Of a stretch of DNA of 64,000 bases, positions 1,078 to 52,107 are shown piece by piece (positions within the stretch are counted from its first letter, which is position 1; each line of letters starts with the position of its first letter). The DNA is from a phage: sequence record PX880103.1. The stretch is one strand, 5' to 3'. A program made the translations under genes and the position numbers. The notes beneath the pieces were generated by a model. The model was not told where the DNA came from, ran no database searches, and worked only from the letters and a program-made list of their open reading frames with translations.

Positions 1078-1350
1078 TTATTTGTTCGTATACATCTCTA
1101 GATATCGATATACACCCTCAAAACCCTCGTTGAATTCGTCGATGAGGGTTTTCTTATCTTCTTGGGTTAATTCAGAAACAATTTTACGGAATGAATTCTG
1201 ATTCAACTTTCTACCTTCATGCATTACTCCAATCTCATTTAGAAATGCAATAAAATTAGCACGATTCTCAACAATATCTTCTCTGGAAAATTTAATCAAA
1301 ATAGACGCAACAGTAATAATTTCACGAACTGTATCAATGTTTTTATTCAT
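1078..1350 (-). CDS. asiA: Anti-sigma70 factor AsiA
   Basis: 90 aa; sequence recognisable as AsiA (MNKNIDTVREIITVASILIKFSREDIVENRANFIAFLNEIG...); ATG confirmed at 1348-1350. Confidence 0.9.
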   Translation of the reverse strand: MNKNIDTVREIITVASILIKFSREDIVENRANFIAFLNEIGVMHEGRKLNQNSFRKIVSELTQEDKKTLIDEFNEGFEGVYRYLEMYTNK

Positions 1351-3169: not shown

Positions 3170-3805
3170 TCACAGTTCAGATGCTACAGTGATTACAGCT
3201 TCAATGTTTTCTGCCGAGCGTTTAATATCAAGATACACATTACCGTTTTTAGCGATTTTACATGACATTCCGATATCAGTAAATTTCTGAATATGATGTT
3301 CCATCATTTTGTATCCAAAAATTCGCATATTTCCATTATTGTTAATTTCAAAATTACGAATTCCGTGAGTGCGTTTTTCTAAAATAGCAAGATAGTTACT
3401 GCGATAAGTTTCAACCTTTTTAAGAACAAATCCATTTTCATCTAAAAGTTTTAACATGAGGTCTTTATCTTCTTCCATATCGGAAGTAATCTCACGAGCT
3501 TTACGAGTTGCTCGTTTTTTCAGCAGTTCCGGAGCATTTTCCTGTGCATATAAAGTTGCTGCATTTGAAATAATATCTTGAGCTTCACCAGTAATGATTA
3601 ATCCATCACCAGATTTCTCCACTAGGCCTTTTTTAATCAATACCCCAATATTACTATTAACTACCGCGTTACCTAAATCTGGATGCACCTCACGAACTTC
3701 TGCGGCTGTAATGAAATCTTTCTTAGCAATGGTAATTAAAATCGCAGCAGTTTTTTCATTCAGAACATCGTTAGAAGCTTTGATGATGTAAGTTACTTTA
3801 GACAT
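3170..3805 (-). CDS. motA: Middle-transcription activator MotA
   Basis: 211 aa, the size of T4 MotA; ATG confirmed at 3803-3805 behind a GGAG SD in the conserved leader. Confidence 0.9.
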   Translation of the reverse strand: MSKVTYIIKASNDVLNEKTAAILITIAKKDFITAAEVREVHPDLGNAVVNSNIGVLIKKGLVEKSGDGLIITGEAQDIISNAATLYAQENAPELLKKRATRKAREITSDMEEDKDLMLKLLDENGFVLKKVETYRSNYLAILEKRTHGIRNFEINNNGNMRIFGYKMMEHHIQKFTDIGMSCKIAKNGNVYLDIKRSAENIEAVITVASEL

Positions 3806-9126: not shown

Positions 9127-11304
9127 TTAGGCCGCAAGGGCCTTCATAGTTTTAGCGATTTGGGAAACTTCATCATCACTTAAAGAGTTGCGATAACCGA
9201 TGAAGTCGGAAACAATACGGAATTTCTTGGTAAACTCAGCAACCATTTTATCACTGTTTTTTGAAGCATTATTTGATAATACATCAAAAAGATTAGTTAC
9301 TGTCCAGATGTCATGACCGATGGTATCTTTTCCACCATTGAAATATACGCCACGTAATGAACTAACTATATTAGCGAGTCGTGTATATTCTTCAGAAACT
9401 TCATCTGTACTGAAGTACTTCATCATAAAATCTAGTTCAGGATACTTGATAATTTTATCAATATATCGTTGAGCTGAACTTGAATAACCTACATACTTAT
9501 CATAATCTACATCATCAAAAGCATCTACATATAAATCACGCAGAGTTTCAAAAATACATTGGCACTGACCGAGTTCTTTTACCTTTTTCTGTAAAAGCGG
9601 ACGAATAACATAAAATTCATTAATGCCAATAAGATTAGCCATACGAATCAAAATATTCATAGATGGATGACAAAGAGATGTAGTACCATCCATAGAGAAA
9701 ATATCAGAACGATGCATATACGCTACATAACCAGTAATTTCATCTGCTTCTGATGTGAGCGTAAATAATTCCTCTTTTTCCCAGCGCCCGTCTTTAATTT
9801 CAAACTTAAATGCTGTAGCAGCTTTAGGACGAGGAGCTTTACTTTTAACTACCTTTGGAATATAACTTTTTACTAAAGCTTCAATTTCTGACAAATAATG
9901 AATGTTAACTTCATCACTTTCAAACATCGCCATAATATCAGGAAGTAAATCAATCTGCGATTCTACTTCTGGATTAATAAACAGAAGGCGTTCGTTATGA
10001 TGAATATTCAAAGTGTTATTAAATTCACTATCATCTAACGCTCGTGCTAATCCACGAACAATATTAACACGATTTTTAATATTATCAATAACGATATTAA
10101 TTTTTGTTGTATTAATACCAAACAGACGATAACTTGATGCAACGGCTGAAGTTTCATGACTTTGCTTAATGCGCTTCAGTCGAGGGTCAAGATTTACTTC
10201 ATACACAACTCCTGCATTGCATAACTTACTGTCAGGTTCAAACATGCTCTGCATCTTTTTATATGACAGATTTTTAGTCGTGAATTTGACTGAATTACTA
10301 ATCATATAATCTCGAGCAGAATACCCCATCTTCATCAATTCACGATATGTGTGACGAGGAGATGTAGATTCTTTAAATCGTTTTACATCTTCATTAAATG
10401 CTTTCTCACTAAGTTCTTTAACTCGTTCAATAATATTTTTACGAGTACGATCATCCAGTGAAAGAGCCTCACGAGATGGAGCAATATCAAGTGAACCCAT
10501 TGGAAACTTAATGTAATTCACTTCATTGCGGATGCTTAACCAGTTACGATCTCTAATAACACCATCGATAGGATAAACAATACCGCCATAGATAGCATAT
10601 AATCCACCGCGATCAGGCCAGTATCTTTCTGGATTTACGCCGTAATAATCATCGAAATCCGGAAAATAATCAATTTCGCGGTCAAGACCATTAATGATAG
10701 CCAAATCTTTGAATGGTCGCATGATATAAGAAACTTCATAAGCAAAGTTTCTAAAGTCTTTTTCTTCAACTGGAACTACGATTTCAATACCAGTTTTATC
10801 ATCTGGACCCATTTCTTTTACGAATGTAGGTTTAATCTGTGGACCATCACCATCCATGTAAGCTACATAACCACGAATTTCACCTTTATGATACGAAGTA
10901 ATACTAAATGTATCAGTATAACTAAACGGAGATTTAGAACCTAAACCAAATCCGCCAATGAAATCGTTAGATTCAGCCTTAGATGAACTGAAGTATGAAT
11001 TATACAGTCCAGGAGAATTATCATCACCCTGAATATCAAAATCACTCATACCCGGACCAAAATCTCGACAAACAAATCGTGGATCTAAACGTCCAGGAAC
11101 TTGTATGATAAATTTTTCAGGATTTCCATTGAGAGCATGGGCATCAATCATGTTAGTAATCAATTCACGAACTACTGCGCGAATCTTGTTTGTATACAAA
11201 TCAGATGACAGAATTTTAAATACTTTAGGAGATGCTGTGATGCTAAATGCTTTTGATTTAGAACCATTACCAAGAATTGTTTCTTTTTCAGTGGTGATAA
11301 TCAT
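9127..11304 (-). CDS. rIIA: rIIA protein
   Basis: 725 aa as in T4 rIIA; ATG confirmed. Confidence 0.9.
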
Positions 11305-13725: not shown

Positions 13726-14097
13726 TCACTTAAATTTAATGGCTTGAAGAAGACTAATAACTCTCAAGCGGCTTCTTTCATCTTTAACTGTAAAGGAAAG
13801 AGGGTCACCAGATTTCATAGTGATAGTGCATCCAAAATCAAAATTTTCGGGAACTTCTTCGAAGAAGTCAAATTCTTCAGCATAAATTAGAACATTACTC
13901 TGCATACTGTGAAGAATTTTTCCATTATTTCCAGACGCTGTACTAATCATCGTAACATTATGACCTTTCATATCTTCAACGATAAATTCGCTTGTAGATA
14001 TTACAGCATTAATAGAACCATTCCTATAAATAGCAGACATTAGATATTTCTTTTCTTCGCCTTCGCGAATACGATATTTCTTACCGATTTTAAACAT
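13726..14097 (-). CDS. Hypothetical protein (123 aa, 39.2 position)
   Basis: ATG at 14097 (track start is GTG). Confidence 0.5.
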   Translation of the reverse strand: MFKIGKKYRIREGEEKKYLMSAIYRNGSINAVISTSEFIVEDMKGHNVTMISTASGNNGKILHSMQSNVLIYAEEFDFFEEVPENFDFGCTITMKSGDPLSFTVKDERSRLRVISLLQAIKFK

Positions 14098-16756: not shown

Positions 16757-17440
16757 TTATCGTTTTGTTGGAAGAGATAGAGGATCGCATTCTTCCTCTG
16801 ATGGAGCATCTTCGAGACCCATAGCATATCGCAAAGCATACTTCATCATCAGAATATCTTTCGCACAGTCATGAATAGAATCATGCGCAACAAATCCATC
16901 TAAGGTTCCTTTTGGAAGAGGGCACGTGGTCATATCACGAACAAGCAGAAGTGCTTCAATTCTGGTACGAATATCACGCTGATTCCAGAATTTACATGGT
17001 TCTAACTTAAATGTGTCAAGCTCATTCTCAGAAACGCCGTTAAGACGTTGAATATCGCGAATGAGATCGACTAAAATTGGAAAATCAAACGACATTCCAC
17101 GGCACCAACCTTGAGATTTCCAAGGATCGATATTATGCGCATTGATGTAATCATTAAATTTTGCAATACCATCGATAGTACTTACATCTTCATCGGATGG
17201 TGCAATATTTTTTCGAGCTTCAGGAGATTGATTTTTCCACCATTCGATAGTGCTTTTAGTAAAAAGACGATGTCCTTTTTGGCTTTTTAAATCAAATTTG
17301 ATTTTAATGCCACGTGAAACTAATTCATCGAATGTTTCAACGACTTCTGGATTAGGGTCAAAAGCAATTACAGCCAAATCAATAACAGCTGCTTTTTCAC
17401 CACTTCCCATTGTTTCAAAATCTATAATAAAATCAAACAT
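16757..17440 (-). CDS. dexA: Exonuclease A (DnaQ-like 3'-5' exonuclease)
   Basis: 227 aa as in T4 DexA; N-terminal DxE motif (DFETMG); ATG confirmed. Confidence 0.85.
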   Translation of the reverse strand: MFDFIIDFETMGSGEKAAVIDLAVIAFDPNPEVVETFDELVSRGIKIKFDLKSQKGHRLFTKSTIEWWKNQSPEARKNIAPSDEDVSTIDGIAKFNDYINAHNIDPWKSQGWCRGMSFDFPILVDLIRDIQRLNGVSENELDTFKLEPCKFWNQRDIRTRIEALLLVRDMTTCPLPKGTLDGFVAHDSIHDCAKDILMMKYALRYAMGLEDAPSEEECDPLSLPTKR

Positions 17441-19802: not shown

Positions 19803-20549
19803 TTATCCTCGGATAAGTTTAAAAATTGAACAATTTAGCGGGTATCCTCTTTTCAGTTTAAGTTTATCAATAAAAGACAAATTTTGATACCGCTCTACAC
19901 CTTGAATAATTTTATCACACATATCATATTGCATTTCTGCTTCTGACAACTTTTTCACAATTTTCCAATCCGAGCCTTTAAGAAGAACGTTCAATTTAAC
20001 AACTTCAGCACCTTCAGCTATGCGAGAACCATCAATACGTGCTTTAAGTGCTATAATTCTTAGCTTAATGTCAGAGGTCTGTTTTGATTTAGAAAGCTGA
20101 GAAATGTGCTCAATTCGGTTTTCACGTTTTTTCTGTATAGCTTTAATTTGATTATAAGTCTTTTTGATTTTAGCCCATTTCTTTTCATCTAAATTTAGTT
20201 TATGAACTTTTTTCGCAGATGAACGACCAATTCGCAAAGCAAACAAATCACGCTTTTCGATCAACTCTTCTAAAGTATAATCAGAACGAAATGTATTATA
20301 CTTTTTCTTTACTGCAATAACATTCCCTTTAATGTATCCAACGTTATTATCAAAACGTTCTAATGATAATTTCTCTCCTTCAATACGATTATCAAAAGGT
20401 TCTCCTGAATAGGCACAAACTTTTTGATCTAAAATGTTCTTAATGTAATTGAAGTCTAAGTTAAAATCTTTAGAACGTCTTTTTGCAGATGCCTGAGTAT
20501 GCTCTAAACGACGTTTAATTTTACGAATTTGATTATTAGACAGCTTCAT
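19803..20549 (-). CDS. srd: Srd-like basic protein (248 aa)
   Basis: Position between dda.1 and modA and size fit T4 srd (from memory, unverified); very lysine/arginine rich. Confidence 0.45.
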   Translation of the reverse strand: MKLSNNQIRKIKRRLEHTQASAKRRSKDFNLDFNYIKNILDQKVCAYSGEPFDNRIEGEKLSLERFDNNVGYIKGNVIAVKKKYNTFRSDYTLEELIEKRDLFALRIGRSSAKKVHKLNLDEKKWAKIKKTYNQIKAIQKKRENRIEHISQLSKSKQTSDIKLRIIALKARIDGSRIAEGAEVVKLNVLLKGSDWKIVKKLSEAEMQYDMCDKIIQGVERYQNLSFIDKLKLKRGYPLNCSIFKLIRG

Positions 20550-20585
20550 ATTTTTCTCACATCTTACGGACGGTTAACTACTTAT

Positions 20586-20615
20586 ACTATAACATTTTTA
20601 CTTTAACTTGTAAAC
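20586..20615 (-). promoter_or_regulatory. Early promoter (GTTTAC-N18-TATAGT) for srd
   Basis: Minus-strand GTTTAC at 20610-20615 and TATAGT at 20586-20591. Confidence 0.6.
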
Positions 20616-20629
20616 AACTTTATGAAAAA

Positions 20630-20654
20630 TGCTTTAAAACTTTCATGGTATAAT
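20630..20654 (+). promoter_or_regulatory. Plus-strand middle-promoter-like element (TGCTTTA, 12 bp, TATAAT), antisense to modA
   Basis: aTGCTTTAaaactttcatggTATAAT read on the plus strand; points into the 3' end of modA. Confidence 0.35.
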
Positions 20655-20671
20655 GAATCTAAGTCCTTCCA

Positions 20672-21274
20672 TTATAGATTAAATCCTTCAAAATCAAGAG
20701 TATAGATAGTGTATGTTGAATACTTTTTGTACTCATATCTGTCTGCAATTCTAAATACACTTCCAGCTGGTATCATTACTTCTTGTTCATCTGAAACTAA
20801 TTCCATATTACGATAACGATGGCTATCCGGAAACTTAAAGTTTGGATTGTATTCTTTACAGCGTAGAGCTTTTATAGCATACTCCTGGAAATTGAATACC
20901 ATAGGAGCTTTGAATTCAAAAATAACTTGTGTGTTATACTCTAAACCGGAAGCAAAATGTAGAGCTATATTTTTATCATATGAAGCTGATACTACTTTAT
21001 CAAATGTAATAATATCAATTCCTTGATTTAATACTTGTTTAGTCTCAGCTGGAACACCTCTCCAAAGAGGTTTATCGTTTGGAACCAAACGAGATTTGAT
21101 TATTTCATTTAACCAAGAATGATCGTCTGGTTTATTAGTAATACAATGAATTAAAAGTTCAATTTCAGATAAATTAAACCCTTCAGAAAGTAATTCTTCA
21201 CGAATAGAAGCACGCACCGATGCATCCATTGATTTTATTTTAAAATCTTTTAGTTGCATTACTGAGTATTTCAT
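20672..21274 (-). CDS. modA: ADP-ribosyltransferase ModA
   Basis: 200 aa as in T4 ModA; adjacent paralogue modB; ATG confirmed. Confidence 0.8.
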   Translation of the reverse strand: MKYSVMQLKDFKIKSMDASVRASIREELLSEGFNLSEIELLIHCITNKPDDHSWLNEIIKSRLVPNDKPLWRGVPAETKQVLNQGIDIITFDKVVSASYDKNIALHFASGLEYNTQVIFEFKAPMVFNFQEYAIKALRCKEYNPNFKFPDSHRYRNMELVSDEQEVMIPAGSVFRIADRYEYKKYSTYTIYTLDFEGFNL

Positions 21275-21894
21275 TCAACTACCTCAATATCATAAACTTT
21301 AAATGTTCCAAATGAATCGTGTAATTTTTCTTTTGAAATAGAAGTTATTCTATACTTTCCAATTGGAATCATCCATTCTTGTTCACGCACAATCATCATT
21401 AAGTTATCAGTACGCTCTGAATCTAGCCCATCAGTATCTTCATATGTGTACTTAAACTCAGTATTAGGAGAAGAAAGTATAATATCGCTGATATGGTCAG
21501 AATAATTAAAAGCTTTATTAGTTTTTAAGCGAAGTATTATTTTAGTAAAATATTCAGCATAAGAAAAAGAACATGCTGTGAGCAAACTAGTAGTAAATGA
21601 ATCTACTCTATTCGTTGAAAACACTTCTCCAACTTGTAAATCTTTAATAAGTTCTTCTGTTGATTTTGATATACCACGATATAACTGATAAGGCGATTTA
21701 GTTAAATGCTTTTTAATGATTTTATTCAACTGCCTATGAAGAGCTTCATTCTTTTTGGCTTCCATACATTGCCAAAGAATGGATTGTTCAAAGTCGGTAA
21801 ATTTTTCACAGACCTTTTTATACATATCATATTGAAAATCGACGCTTTCAGCTTTTATAGATAACTGTTCAACATCTGTAAGATTAATAATCAT
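21271..21894 (-). CDS. modB: ADP-ribosyltransferase ModB
   Basis: 207 aa as in T4 ModB; GGAGG SD; ATG confirmed. Confidence 0.8.
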   Translation of the reverse strand: MIINLTDVEQLSIKAESVDFQYDMYKKVCEKFTDFEQSILWQCMEAKKNEALHRQLNKIIKKHLTKSPYQLYRGISKSTEELIKDLQVGEVFSTNRVDSFTTSLLTACSFSYAEYFTKIILRLKTNKAFNYSDHISDIILSSPNTEFKYTYEDTDGLDSERTDNLMMIVREQEWMIPIGKYRITSISKEKLHDSFGTFKVYDIEVVE

Positions 21895-24328: not shown

Positions 24329-24370
24329 AATAAACTCCTTTATTGTTTAATTACAGGTGTATTTATATCA

Positions 24371-25574: not shown

Positions 25575-25598
25575 ATTATACAATAAATATATAAAGCA
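25575..25598 (-). promoter_or_regulatory. Middle-promoter-like element (TGCTTTA, 11 bp, TATAAT) upstream of the HNH gene
   Basis: Minus strand tTGCTTTAtatatttattgTATAAT; overlaps the plus-strand AATAAATA box of the divergent small ORF. Confidence 0.45.
25582..25589 (+). promoter_or_regulatory. Late-promoter-like AATAAATA box upstream of plus-strand ORF 25612..25812
   Basis: 7/8 match to TATAAATA, about 22 nt before the ATG; strong AAGGAGGA SD follows. Confidence 0.3.
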
Positions 25599-40123: not shown

Positions 40124-40178
40124 GTTTTTCCTCCATAGAGATTATACTCTAATAAATTAAAGCATAATCTCTTATAAA

Positions 40179-51637: not shown

Positions 51638-52107
51638 TTTAAACTCTTTCTAAGCTGCTTCTTAAATGAAGCTATTAACTGTGTTTTGGTGTCAGATTCA
51701 TTATATTCAAATCCTCTTTGAAGCATCTCGGCCATCATTTCCTCTTTTCCTAAACGAGAAAATTCCTTTGATTTATCTCCAACAAAGTTAGGGTGAATAT
51801 TATTTTGGGTGTAATCGGATTTTAAATAAGTAAGTAAATTTTCTAACCATTCAAGATAATCAACACCTTGTCCCTTTAAGCCAGAACGATTAAATTTGTG
51901 CTTCATTTGACCTTCTGCAGCATTGCAGAGATTACAAAGCAATCCACGCACCTTTCCTGCTTTTGGTCCATTTAATTCATGGTCATGGTCGAGGTGATTA
52001 GCTTGAACATCAGGATTTAGTTCTCGTTGGCAAATTAAGCATTTACCGTTTTGTGCATCATAAAATTTCTGTTTTTCTTCTTTATATAATTTGCCAGTCA
52101 ATAACAT
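51634..52107 (-). CDS. 49: Endonuclease VII (Holliday junction resolvase) gp49
   Basis: 157 aa as in T4 endo VII; zinc/His-Cys region CLICQRELNPDVQANHLDHDHELNGPK...CNLCN. Confidence 0.85.
   Translation of the reverse strand: MLLTGKLYKEEKQKFYDAQNGKCLICQRELNPDVQANHLDHDHELNGPKAGKVRGLLCNLCNAAEGQMKHKFNRSGLKGQGVDYLEWLENLLTYLKSDYTQNNIHPNFVGDKSKEFSRLGKEEMMAEMLQRGFEYNESDTKTQLIASFKKQLRKSLK

What the first reader, a model, noticed from the sequence alone, without database searches (positions are those of the whole stretch)
20630..20654. Plus-strand middle-promoter-like element pointing antisense into modA
On the plus strand, aTGCTTTA-aaactttcatgg-TATAAT is a perfect MotA box with 12-bp spacer and a consensus -10 that also reads as extended TGGTATAAT. 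It lies between srd and modA and would start a transcript at about 20661 running antisense through the 3' end of modA, in a region where every annotated gene is on the minus strand. An antisense RNA could shut off the ADP-ribosyltransferase genes in the middle period.
Basis: seen in the sequence. Interest (0 to 1): 0.4.

Follow-up and report, generated by a model that had tools for sequence, protein, structure and literature searches.

The report
Conserved antisense middle promoter behind modA
A textbook-perfect T4 "middle" promoter sits just behind the toxic ADP-ribosyltransferase gene modA and points backwards into it; it is kept in every MotA-encoding T4 relative examined, so it is very probably a working antisense promoter, although nobody has yet shown its transcript.

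Summary
On the + strand, AAATGCTTTA (20627-20636), a 12-bp spacer and TGG-TATAAT (20646-20654) form a perfect MotA box plus extended -10. They lie in the srd-modA gap of a T4-like phage, and this gap is 100% identical to T4.

On its own the match is only modestly unlikely: 0.07 strict matches are expected in the window.

Comparison makes the case. In 41 of 41 srd loci from MotA-encoding Tevenvirinae (about 10 genera) one such element lies just 3' of the last mod gene and points into it. The two boxes are kept (1.6-2 bits per position) while the spacer and the rest of the gap diverge.

Krischvirus has the same mod-srd gene order but no motA, and it lacks the element. Where an extra ORF separates mod from srd, the element stays with mod.

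I found no conserved RNA structure, antisense ORF, intrinsic terminator or clear unwinding element.

Best reading: a genuine MotA/AsiA-dependent promoter that makes an untranslated transcript antisense to mod. In most genomes it also competes physically with the srd early promoter.

It is absent from the list of 58 mapped T4 middle promoters. Its RB69 counterpart was predicted computationally in 2006. The transcript and its function remain untested.

The parts
20627..20636 (+). MotA box AAATGCTTTA (core TGCTTTA at 20630-20636), centred about -30 of the predicted start
   Evidence: It matches the consensus quoted in PMC2988021. TGCTTT carries 1.6-2.0 bits per position across 15 clade representatives.
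20637..20648 (+). 12-bp spacer; its last three bases, TGG (20646-20648), form the extended -10 TGn
   Evidence: Spacer length is 12 or 13 in all relatives, but the spacer sequence is not conserved (0-0.7 bits).
20649..20654 (+). sigma-70 -10 hexamer TATAAT
   Evidence: It is invariant (2 bits at every position) in 15 clade representatives, and the following G is invariant as well.
20661..20661 (+). Predicted transcription start (A, 7 nt after the -10), equivalent to T4 coordinate 11897
   Evidence: Inferred from promoter geometry. The -6 to +3 region (GAATCT|AAG) is conserved among relatives and resembles other MotA-box promoters in the window, whose predicted starts are at 51693 and 25568.
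20661..21894 (+). Predicted untranslated antisense transcript across modA and possibly modB; its 3' end is unknown
   Evidence: Inference. No conserved intrinsic terminator lies within 1.5 kb. There is no consistent ORF or Shine-Dalgarno sequence, no Rfam match and no conserved structure.
20672..21274 (-). modA (RNA polymerase alpha ADP-ribosyltransferase); its stop codon lies 11 nt from the predicted antisense start
21271..21894 (-). modB (ADP-ribosyltransferase), overlapping modA by 4 nt
20586..20614 (-). Early promoter of srd: TTTACA (20614-20609), 17 bp, TGt-TATAGT (20591-20586), start about 20579. It is back-to-back with the element, with predicted starts 82 bp apart, and the MotA box lies at -51 to -57 of this promoter (its UP-element zone).
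   Evidence: The depositors of X98695 annotated the same -35 and -10 signals. Minus-strand sequence.
19803..20549 (-). srd (the gene served by the adjacent early promoter)
3170..3805 (-). motA, the activator that reads MotA boxes (trans-acting factor encoded in the same window)
   Evidence: An identical protein, P0001, carries the Pfam domains PF09158 and PF09114.
1078..1350 (-). asiA, the co-activator / anti-sigma factor needed for sigma appropriation

Best explanation
This is a genuine T4-type middle promoter: a MotA box replaces the -35 element and a sigma-70 -10 follows. Once MotA and AsiA have remodelled host RNA polymerase, it starts transcription at about 20661 on the plus strand.

The transcript encodes no protein and has no defined terminator. 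It runs antisense through the 3' end of modA and probably further into modA and modB.

Its most likely role is local silencing of the toxic ADP-ribosyltransferase gene(s) at the early-to-middle switch. This could work by pairing with mod mRNA, by head-on interference with early transcription entering from upstream of modB, or by both.

Polymerase bound here also occupies the UP-element zone of the srd early promoter in T4. In several other genera it occupies the srd promoter itself.

What is shown: the sequence anatomy; the conservation; the link to motA; and the link to the 3' end of mod. What is inferred: that the promoter fires in vivo; its MotA/AsiA dependence; its timing; and its effect on mod and srd. 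My rough breakdown is about 0.8 that it is a functional MotA-type promoter or polymerase-binding site, and about 0.45-0.5 that its purpose is to down-regulate mod.
For: (1) The match to the consensus is perfect, includes TGn, and has no -35.

(2) The phage encodes MotA and AsiA.

(3) Phylogenetic footprint. The element is present in Tequatrovirus, Mosigvirus, Dhakavirus, Gaprivervirus, Karamvirus, Winklervirus, Gelderlandvirus, Jiaodavirus, Tegunavirus and further IMG/VR clades. That is 41 of 41 loci and 33 distinct sequences. The boxes carry 1.6-2 bits per position and the spacer about 0-0.7 bits, with spacing always 12-13.

(4) Co-occurrence with motA. The contigs that carry the element also carry motA wherever the contig is long enough to tell (L026 and L039 lie on partial contigs); motA was found on the same contig, for L023 on another contig of the same assembly, and in Gaprivervirus by annotation in a GenBank genome of that genus. 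Krischvirus keeps the mod-srd-dda.1-dda gene order but lacks both motA and the element. The literature also reports no motA in RB49 (PMC1524935).

(5) Natural experiment. In L041, L042 and L057 a 63-aa ORF separates mod from srd, and the element stays 3' of mod.

(6) Its position relative to the srd early promoter flips between clades (upstream in some, downstream in others), while its orientation into mod never changes.

(7) Within about 503 Tequatrovirus records the 45-nt core is at least 95% identical in 502. The adjacent 45 nt reaches that level in only 259.

(8) Alternatives tested negative: no RNA structure, ORF, terminator or Rfam family.

(9) An HMM scan independently called the RB69 counterpart a middle promoter: Pm:12081, + strand, '1 bp ins'.
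Against: No transcript evidence was available to me.

The site is absent from the table of 58 experimentally identified T4 middle promoters. The depositors of the modA/modB record annotated only the sense-strand early promoters.

[quoted passage not shown] From memory, Stoskiene et al. 2007 also state that some good consensus matches give no transcript; I could not retrieve that paper.

A T4 dRNA-seq study reports 22 antisense start sites, but its table is not held, so I could not check this site.

From memory, the dexA-56 region can be deleted from T4 without loss of viability, so any role is accessory.

T4 early mRNAs are already short-lived, which makes a dedicated antisense shut-off less obviously necessary.
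Confidence: 0.55

Rival explanations
1. The element is a polymerase and MotA docking site, and its job is promoter competition rather than RNA production. When the sigma-appropriated polymerase binds here in the middle period, it blocks the srd early promoter. Any antisense RNA is a by-product.
For: In T4, Mosigvirus, Dhakavirus and Gaprivervirus the MotA box lies at about -51 to -57 of the srd early promoter, inside its UP-element zone, and the two predicted starts are 82 bp apart.

In the Karamvirus, Winklervirus and Gelderlandvirus-type genomes the two promoters face each other. Their -10 hexamers lie 13-14 bp apart and the predicted starts fall on the same or adjacent base pair, so both cannot be occupied at once (worked out by hand from the sequences).
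Against: In L041, L042 and L057 the element is about 260 bp from the srd early promoter and still sits at the mod stop codon. Adjacency to srd is therefore not the invariant feature.

AsiA already inhibits -35-dependent promoters, and Alt/ModA modification of alpha already disables UP-element use (PMC2988021). Extra occlusion seems redundant.
Confidence: 0.2
2. The element is a silent look-alike. It is an AT-rich UP element of the srd early promoter that happens to read as a MotA box plus -10 on the other strand.
For: By eye, the minus-strand sequence from -59 to -38 of the srd promoter (TTTAAAGCATTTTTCATAAAGT) matches 8 of 11 positions of the distal UP subsite consensus (sequence).

The site is not in the table of mapped middle promoters. 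Some consensus-like sites in T4 are reported to be inactive.
Against: In at least five genera the same two boxes lie downstream of the srd early promoter, where a UP element has no meaning.

The G and C of the GCTT core are invariant, which is unexpected for a UP element. The TATAAT lies at -70 to -75, outside any UP element, yet is invariant.

The element is absent exactly where motA is absent.
Confidence: 0.07
3. The element is an origin-type middle promoter. Like oriF (uvsY) and oriG (gene 34), its transcript would form an R-loop that primes leading-strand DNA synthesis.
For: T4 origins oriF and oriG consist of a MotA-dependent promoter plus a downstream unwinding element. An orphan middle promoter with no gene to serve fits that pattern (PMC3016281).
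Against: The mapped origin nearest this site, oriA, is placed near soc in the review. From memory, that is roughly 4 kb away in T4.

The DNA downstream is only slightly more AT-rich than the locus average in T4 (72-76% against 68%), and the excess is not consistent in other clades.

The tight link to the 3' end of mod is not explained by this idea.
Confidence: 0.05
4. The conserved blocks act in the sense-strand RNA (the mod 3' UTR or the srd 5' UTR), for example as a processing or protein-binding site. Alternatively, the promoter serves an unannotated small plus-strand gene.
For: The sense transcript must pass through the element. Conservation extends a few bases beyond the -10 (TATAATG.T..A.G).
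Against: RNAalifold finds no conserved pairing on either strand, and the mean single-sequence folding z-scores are +0.9 and -0.1. There is no Rfam match.

Two conserved blocks separated by a spacer of variable sequence but fixed length are the signature of a promoter, not of an RNA motif.

Four clades have no antisense ORF of at least 20 aa starting within 200 nt, and none has a consistent Shine-Dalgarno sequence.
Confidence: 0.05

Closest known systems
T4 MotA/AsiA-dependent middle promoters (sigma appropriation), e.g. PuvsX, P56/69
   Same: It has the same 10-bp MotA box, the same 12-13 bp spacing, the same sigma-70 -10 (here with TGn) and no -35. Even the -6 to -1 bases (GAATCT) recur at other MotA-box promoters in the window. 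The phage encodes both activators.
   Different: All 58 mapped T4 middle promoters are named after a T4 gene or tRNA. This one has no gene downstream and points against a block of early genes. Its activity has not been demonstrated.
Lambda OOP RNA (and similar cis-antisense RNAs such as P22 sar) - comparison recalled from general knowledge
   Same: The promoter sits just beyond the 3' end of a regulatory or toxic gene (cII in lambda) and fires back into it, giving an RNA fully complementary to the end of the target mRNA.
   Different: OOP is a discrete 77-nt RNA ended by an intrinsic terminator and acts through RNase III. Here no terminator is found within 1.5 kb in most clades, so the product would be long or heterogeneous. 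The promoter is also activator-dependent and temporally gated.
RB69 predicted middle promoter 'Pm:12081' (Nolan et al. 2006, Additional file 4)
   Same: It is the orthologous site. It lies in the RB69 srd-modA gap, on the + strand, with a 13-bp spacer ('1 bp ins'). I verified this on the RB69 sequence.
   Different: It was only a line in a supplementary list of HMM hits (score 7.9). The passages I retrieved from the paper's text do not discuss it, and the word 'antisense' does not occur in the paper.
T4 R-loop origins oriF (uvsY) and oriG (gene 34)
   Same: Each uses a middle-mode promoter whose transcript need not encode anything.
   Different: Those origins have a defined AT-rich unwinding element and mapped origin activity. 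Neither is evident at this site.

Membership tests
T4-type middle promoter (MotA/AsiA, sigma appropriation) | MotA box (a/t)(a/t)(a/t)TGCTTtA centred near -30 | tested here: met
   AAATGCTTTA at 20627-20636 matches 10 of 10 positions. The consensus is taken from PMC2988021.
T4-type middle promoter (MotA/AsiA, sigma appropriation) | sigma-70 -10 element TAtaaT lying 12+/-1 bp downstream of the box | tested here: met
   TATAAT at 20649-20654 after a 12-bp spacer, preceded by TGG (extended -10).
T4-type middle promoter (MotA/AsiA, sigma appropriation) | No sigma-70 -35 hexamer; the MotA box takes its place | tested here: met
   The hexamers 16-18 bp upstream (AAATGC, AAAATG, AAAAAT) match TTGACA at 0-1 of 6 positions by eye. 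The sigma-70 scan lists no + strand site here.
T4-type middle promoter (MotA/AsiA, sigma appropriation) | The genome encodes MotA and AsiA | tested here: met
   motA at 3170-3805(-) and asiA at 1078-1350(-). MotA carries PF09158 and PF09114.
T4-type middle promoter (MotA/AsiA, sigma appropriation) | A transcript that starts 7+/-1 nt after the -10 and depends on MotA and AsiA in vivo or in vitro | not testable with these tools
   No RNA data are accessible. The site is not in the table of 58 mapped promoters. The dRNA-seq start-site table is not held.
T4-type middle promoter (MotA/AsiA, sigma appropriation) | The element co-varies with the presence of MotA across relatives (a comparative proxy for dependence) | tested here: met
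   41 of 41 loci from MotA-encoding phages carry it. It is absent from MotA-less Krischvirus, which has the same gene order.
Discrete cis-antisense regulatory RNA (lambda OOP type) | The promoter lies beyond the 3' end of the target gene and fires back into it | tested here: met
   The predicted start lies 11 nt from the modA stop codon, and about 23-41 nt from the mod stop in four other clades counted by hand. The orientation is always into mod.
Discrete cis-antisense regulatory RNA (lambda OOP type) | A short RNA of defined length ended by an intrinsic terminator | tested here: not met
   No hairpin plus U-tract lies within 1.5 kb in 12 of 15 clades, and none is at a conserved distance. There are only two weak hairpins at 21056-21092 in the window.
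Discrete cis-antisense regulatory RNA (lambda OOP type) | Duplex-dependent (RNase III) decay or repression of the target mRNA | not testable with these tools
   This needs RNA analysis in rnc+ and rnc- hosts.
T4 R-loop replication origin (oriF/oriG type) | An A+T-rich DNA unwinding element directly downstream of the middle promoter | tested here: inconclusive
   AT content at +1 to +100 is 72-76% against a 68% locus mean in the T4-like locus. The excess is small or absent in other clades.
T4 R-loop replication origin (oriF/oriG type) | Mapped origin activity at the locus | not testable with these tools
   The review places oriA near soc and names no origin at this site.
UP element of the srd early promoter | A fixed position at -40 to -60 upstream of the -35 across relatives | tested here: not met
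   In Karamvirus, Winklervirus, Gelderlandvirus, Jiaodavirus and Tegunavirus the element lies next to the srd start codon. Where the early promoter was recognised (the first three), that is downstream of it. In L041-type genomes it is about 260 bp away.

The most novel reading that the evidence does not exclude
The element is the RNA-producing half of a conserved, direction-flipping switch. Early in infection, unmodified polymerase uses the srd early promoter. Once AsiA and MotA appropriate sigma-70, the same stretch of DNA fires the other way. This silences the toxic mod gene(s) by antisense transcription and shuts the srd promoter by occlusion. It would be the first cis-antisense control tied to sigma appropriation, and a concrete local mechanism for the still-unexplained shut-off of T4 early genes.
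Probability: 0.35. Interest if true: 0.65.

Novelty: new member of a known kind. Interest (0 to 1): 0.5.

Why it matters
T4 middle transcription is the textbook case of sigma appropriation, and its mapped promoters have been catalogued as serving genes. Here is a middle promoter that serves no gene, points against an early operon and has been kept for the whole history of the MotA-bearing Tevenvirinae. That suggests MotA is used to turn genes off as well as on.

The Hinton review notes that the phage must have unknown strategies to stop early transcription, because neither modA nor asiA mutants prevent the shut-off. This site offers a small, precisely mutable test case. One or two base changes in the -10 or the MotA box, in a dispensable region, would show whether middle-mode antisense transcription limits expression of a toxic early enzyme.

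It also flags one specific line to check in existing T4 dRNA-seq data.

Tried and rejected
(1) I looked for annotated promoters in the T4 records. AF158101 and NC_000866 carry only CDS features in this region. X98695 annotates only the sense-strand early promoters.

(2) Literature. The site is not in the 58-promoter table. No paper in the library combines MotA box, AsiA and antisense beyond that review. The T4 dRNA-seq preprint reports 22 antisense start sites, but the table is not held as text. Miller 2003, Tiemann 1999 and 2004, and Stoskiene 2007 are not held.

(3) Origin hypothesis. oriA maps near soc, not here, and there is no clear unwinding element. Rejected as the main reading.

(4) Small antisense RNA with a terminator. 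None is conserved.

(5) Antisense small protein. There is no consistent ORF or Shine-Dalgarno sequence.

(6) Structured RNA on either strand. RNAalifold finds nothing and Rfam finds nothing.

(7) A scan of IMG/VR with a Mod protein alignment failed because the alignment was too diverse. I therefore could not test MotA-encoding phages that lack an srd hit (Aeromonas, Proteus, Serratia PS2 and Erwinia Cronus types).

(8) A late promoter on the + strand nearby. There is none; TATAAATA is depleted across the window.

Full report
**What the window is.** The region around the finding is a T4-like (Tequatrovirus) genome. A 2.1-kb query spanning srd-modA-modB matches 503 phage records at 90-99% identity. 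The srd-modA intergenic region is identical, base for base, to T4 AF158101. T4 coordinate equals window coordinate minus 8764. The ORFs are dda, dda.1, srd (19803-20549), modA (20672-21274) and modB (21271-21894), all on the minus strand. The same window encodes the two factors that read middle promoters: motA (3170-3805, -) and asiA (1078-1350, -).

**The observation.** On the plus strand the sequence reads AAATGCTTTA (20627-20636), then aaactttcatgg (12 bp), then TATAAT (20649-20654).
- This is a 10-of-10 match to the published MotA box (a/t)(a/t)(a/t)TGCTTtA, which sits 12+/-1 bp from a sigma-70 -10 TAtaaT (PMC2988021).
- The three bases before the -10 are TGG, giving an extended -10.
- There is no -35 hexamer (and by eye).
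- An A lies 7 nt downstream, at 20661, which is 11 nt from the modA stop codon.
- The strict pattern occurs 3 times in the 64-kb window against 0.07 expected. The other two hits are on the coding strand.
- With a relaxed pattern there are 18 hits against 5.1 expected, 13 of them on the minus strand.

On one sequence alone, however, the statistics are only moderately persuasive.

The minus strand carries the srd early promoter: TTTACA (20614-20609), 17 bp, TGt-TATAGT (20591-20586). The depositors of the original modA/modB record annotated the same -35 and -10. The two promoters are back to back, with predicted starts 82 bp apart. The MotA box lies at -51 to -57 of the early promoter, in its UP-element zone. 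This raised an obvious rival: the "MotA box" might be merely an AT-rich UP element read on the other strand.

**Comparative test.** The gene order mod-srd-dda.1-dda is kept well beyond Tequatrovirus. I examined two sets of loci.
- GenBank loci from Mosigvirus, Dhakavirus, Gaprivervirus, Karamvirus, Winklervirus, Gelderlandvirus, Jiaodavirus, Tegunavirus and Krischvirus.
- 50 IMG/VR loci found with an Srd alignment.

In every MotA-encoding phage, one MotA-box/-10 pair lies on the antisense strand directly 3' of the last mod gene. This holds although the intergenic DNA has diverged beyond blastn alignment. Examples:
- Mosigvirus: TGCTTTAATTTTTTATGTGTTATAAT
- Dhakavirus: TGCTTTAAATTTTCGACGGTATAAT
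- Karamvirus: TGCTTTTGCGAAAGTAGCGGTATAAT
- Jiaodavirus: TGCTTTCGTCTTACGGACGGTATAAT
- Tegunavirus: TGCTTTATAATTAAACGTGTTATAAT
- Gaprivervirus: a CGCTTTT box

In all, 41 of 41 such loci (33 distinct sequences) carry it. Across the roughly 279 kb of loci scanned, the antisense strand has 42 hits, and 41 of them are this site.

Across 15 clade representatives, information content is as follows:
- TGCTTT: 1.6-2.0 bits per position.
- TATAATG: 2.0 bits per position.
- The spacer: 0-0.7 bits, with length fixed at 12-13.

That is the signature of a promoter.

Within about 503 Tequatrovirus records the 45-nt core is at least 95% identical in 502. The neighbouring 45 nt of the same intergenic region reaches that level in only 259.

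**Link to MotA.** I matched contig names between the Srd scan and a MotA scan.
- The contigs that carry the element also carry motA wherever the contig is long enough to tell; L026 and L039 lie on partial contigs. For L023, motA lies on another contig of the same assembly.
- Gaprivervirus was missed by the peptide patterns, but a GenBank genome of that genus has an annotated motA and asiA.
- Krischvirus (the RB49 group) keeps an ADP-ribosylase gene directly upstream of srd. It has neither motA nor the element. This agrees with the published failure to find motA or middle promoters in RB49 (PMC1524935).
- Other MotA-negative contigs lack mod next to srd and also lack the element. They are less informative.

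**Link to mod rather than srd.** Two facts point this way.
- The position of the element relative to the srd early promoter is not fixed. In T4, Mosigvirus, Dhakavirus, Gaprivervirus and the L053-L055 clades it lies upstream of the early promoter (back to back). In the Karamvirus, Winklervirus and Gelderlandvirus-type genomes it lies between the early promoter and the srd start codon, facing the early promoter. There the two -10 hexamers are 13-14 bp apart and the predicted starts fall on the same or adjacent base pair (worked out by hand). In Jiaodavirus and Tegunavirus it also lies next to the srd start codon, but no early promoter matched my pattern there. A UP element cannot explain a site downstream of the promoter, so that rival fails.
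- In L041, L042 and L057 a 63-aa ORF has been inserted between mod and srd. The element stays within about 30 nt of the mod stop codon, and srd keeps its own early promoter about 260 bp away.

The invariant features are therefore the position immediately beyond the 3' end of mod and the orientation into mod.

**What the transcript would be.**
- There is no Rfam hit.
- RNAalifold finds no conserved secondary structure on either strand.
- There is no consistent antisense ORF or ribosome-binding site; four clades have no ORF of at least 20 aa starting within 200 nt.
- No conserved intrinsic terminator lies within 1.5 kb. The window has only two weak hairpins, at 21056-21092.
- The downstream DNA is only marginally more AT-rich than the locus mean.

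The product is therefore best pictured as an untranslated transcript of heterogeneous length, complementary to mod mRNA. It is not a discrete small RNA, a gene, or an obvious origin primer. T4 origins of the oriF/oriG type do use middle promoters, but the nearest mapped origin, oriA, lies near soc rather than here.

**Mechanism.** I propose that the site is inactive, or only weakly active through its TGn/-10, until AsiA and MotA remodel sigma-70. It then fires into mod. Two consequences follow from the geometry.
- Antisense pairing with mod mRNA, together with head-on interference with early transcription entering from the promoter upstream of modB.
- Competition with the srd early promoter: by occupying its UP-element zone in T4, or by mutual exclusion where the start sites coincide.

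The L041-type genomes make the first consequence the conserved one. ModA is described as highly toxic to E. coli. The review also notes that the mechanism of early shut-off remains unknown, since modA and asiA mutants still shut off early transcription. All of these functional steps are inference.

**Prior knowledge.**
- The site is not among the 58 experimentally identified T4 middle promoters; the nearest are Pdda.1 at 11138 and P56/69 at 16813.
- The RB69 orthologue appears as "Pm:12081, + strand, 1 bp ins, score 7.9" in a supplementary list of HMM predictions from 2006. I confirmed on the RB69 sequence that this is the same site. The passages I retrieved from that paper's text do not discuss it.
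- A T4 dRNA-seq study reports 22 antisense start sites, but I could not access its table.
- The review reports that T4 has GATT-box middle-promoter look-alikes with excellent -10 elements that are not active. From memory, Stoskiene et al. 2007 also caution that some good consensus matches are silent. This is why activity cannot be assumed from sequence alone.

**Verdict.** The interpretation as a promoter is strongly supported by conservation, by co-occurrence with motA and by linkage to mod. The proposed regulatory purpose is plausible but untested. The element belongs to a known kind (a MotA-type middle promoter producing a cis-antisense transcript), but it is an unusual and apparently undescribed member of that kind.

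Noticed in passing
window 20568-20580 (- strand); also L009-L014, and inside the promoter spacer in L019/L050-L052: An 11-13-nt motif, CGTCCGTAAGA(T/C)G, is conserved. As RNA it would form a 4-bp stem CGUC/GA(U/C)G with a CGUAA loop. In T4, Mosigvirus, Dhakavirus and Gaprivervirus it lies in the srd 5' leader. In Jiaodavirus the same motif sits between the MotA box and the -10 of the antisense promoter (TGCTTTCGTCTTACGGACGGTATAAT). Its function is unknown.
   Followed up: no
L007 (RB18), intergenic region 1710-1832: RB18 carries TGACTTTA instead of TGCTTTA (a 1-bp insertion), which gives an ACTT-centred box. The review describes the ACTT box of P46 as poorly bound by MotA on unmodified DNA but active on T4 DNA. 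This is a natural variant that could be used to test the promoter.
   Followed up: no
L041 2251-2442 (also L042, L057): A 63-aa ORF (MHKFLIMLWYTIDGEHYHSS...) is inserted between mod and srd in one clade of MotA-encoding phages. It has no early promoter of its own, and the antisense element sits directly upstream of its ribosome-binding site.
   Followed up: partly
whole window; hits at 14025-14032 (+) and 24360-24367 (-): The late-promoter core TATAAATA is strongly depleted: 2 occurrences against 10.1 expected from shuffles. This is consistent with selection against stray late promoters in this mostly early/middle region. The + strand copy at 14025 would be antisense to early genes.
   Followed up: no
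window 25575-25598 (-) and 40141-40164 (-): These are the two other perfect TGCTTTA-N-TATAAT matches, both on the coding strand. The first (predicted start about 25568, T4 about 16804) is probably P56/69, the promoter that the literature associates with oriA. It and the promoter whose predicted start is at 51693 share the -6 to -1 bases (T/G)AATCT with the element studied here.
   Followed up: partly
window 21056-21092 (+): Two adjacent weak hairpins (ACCTCTCCAAAGAGGT and TCGTTTGGAACCAAACGA) lie about 400 nt downstream of the predicted antisense start, inside modA. They did not pass a stricter terminator test and are not conserved in other clades.
   Followed up: partly
RB69 record, about 54516 (+) (Nolan 2006 Additional file 4): The same supplementary list holds three other plus-strand predicted middle promoters in RB69 (Pm:54516, score 7.5; Pm:79256; Pm:88491). 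I did not check whether any of them is antisense or conserved.
   Followed up: no
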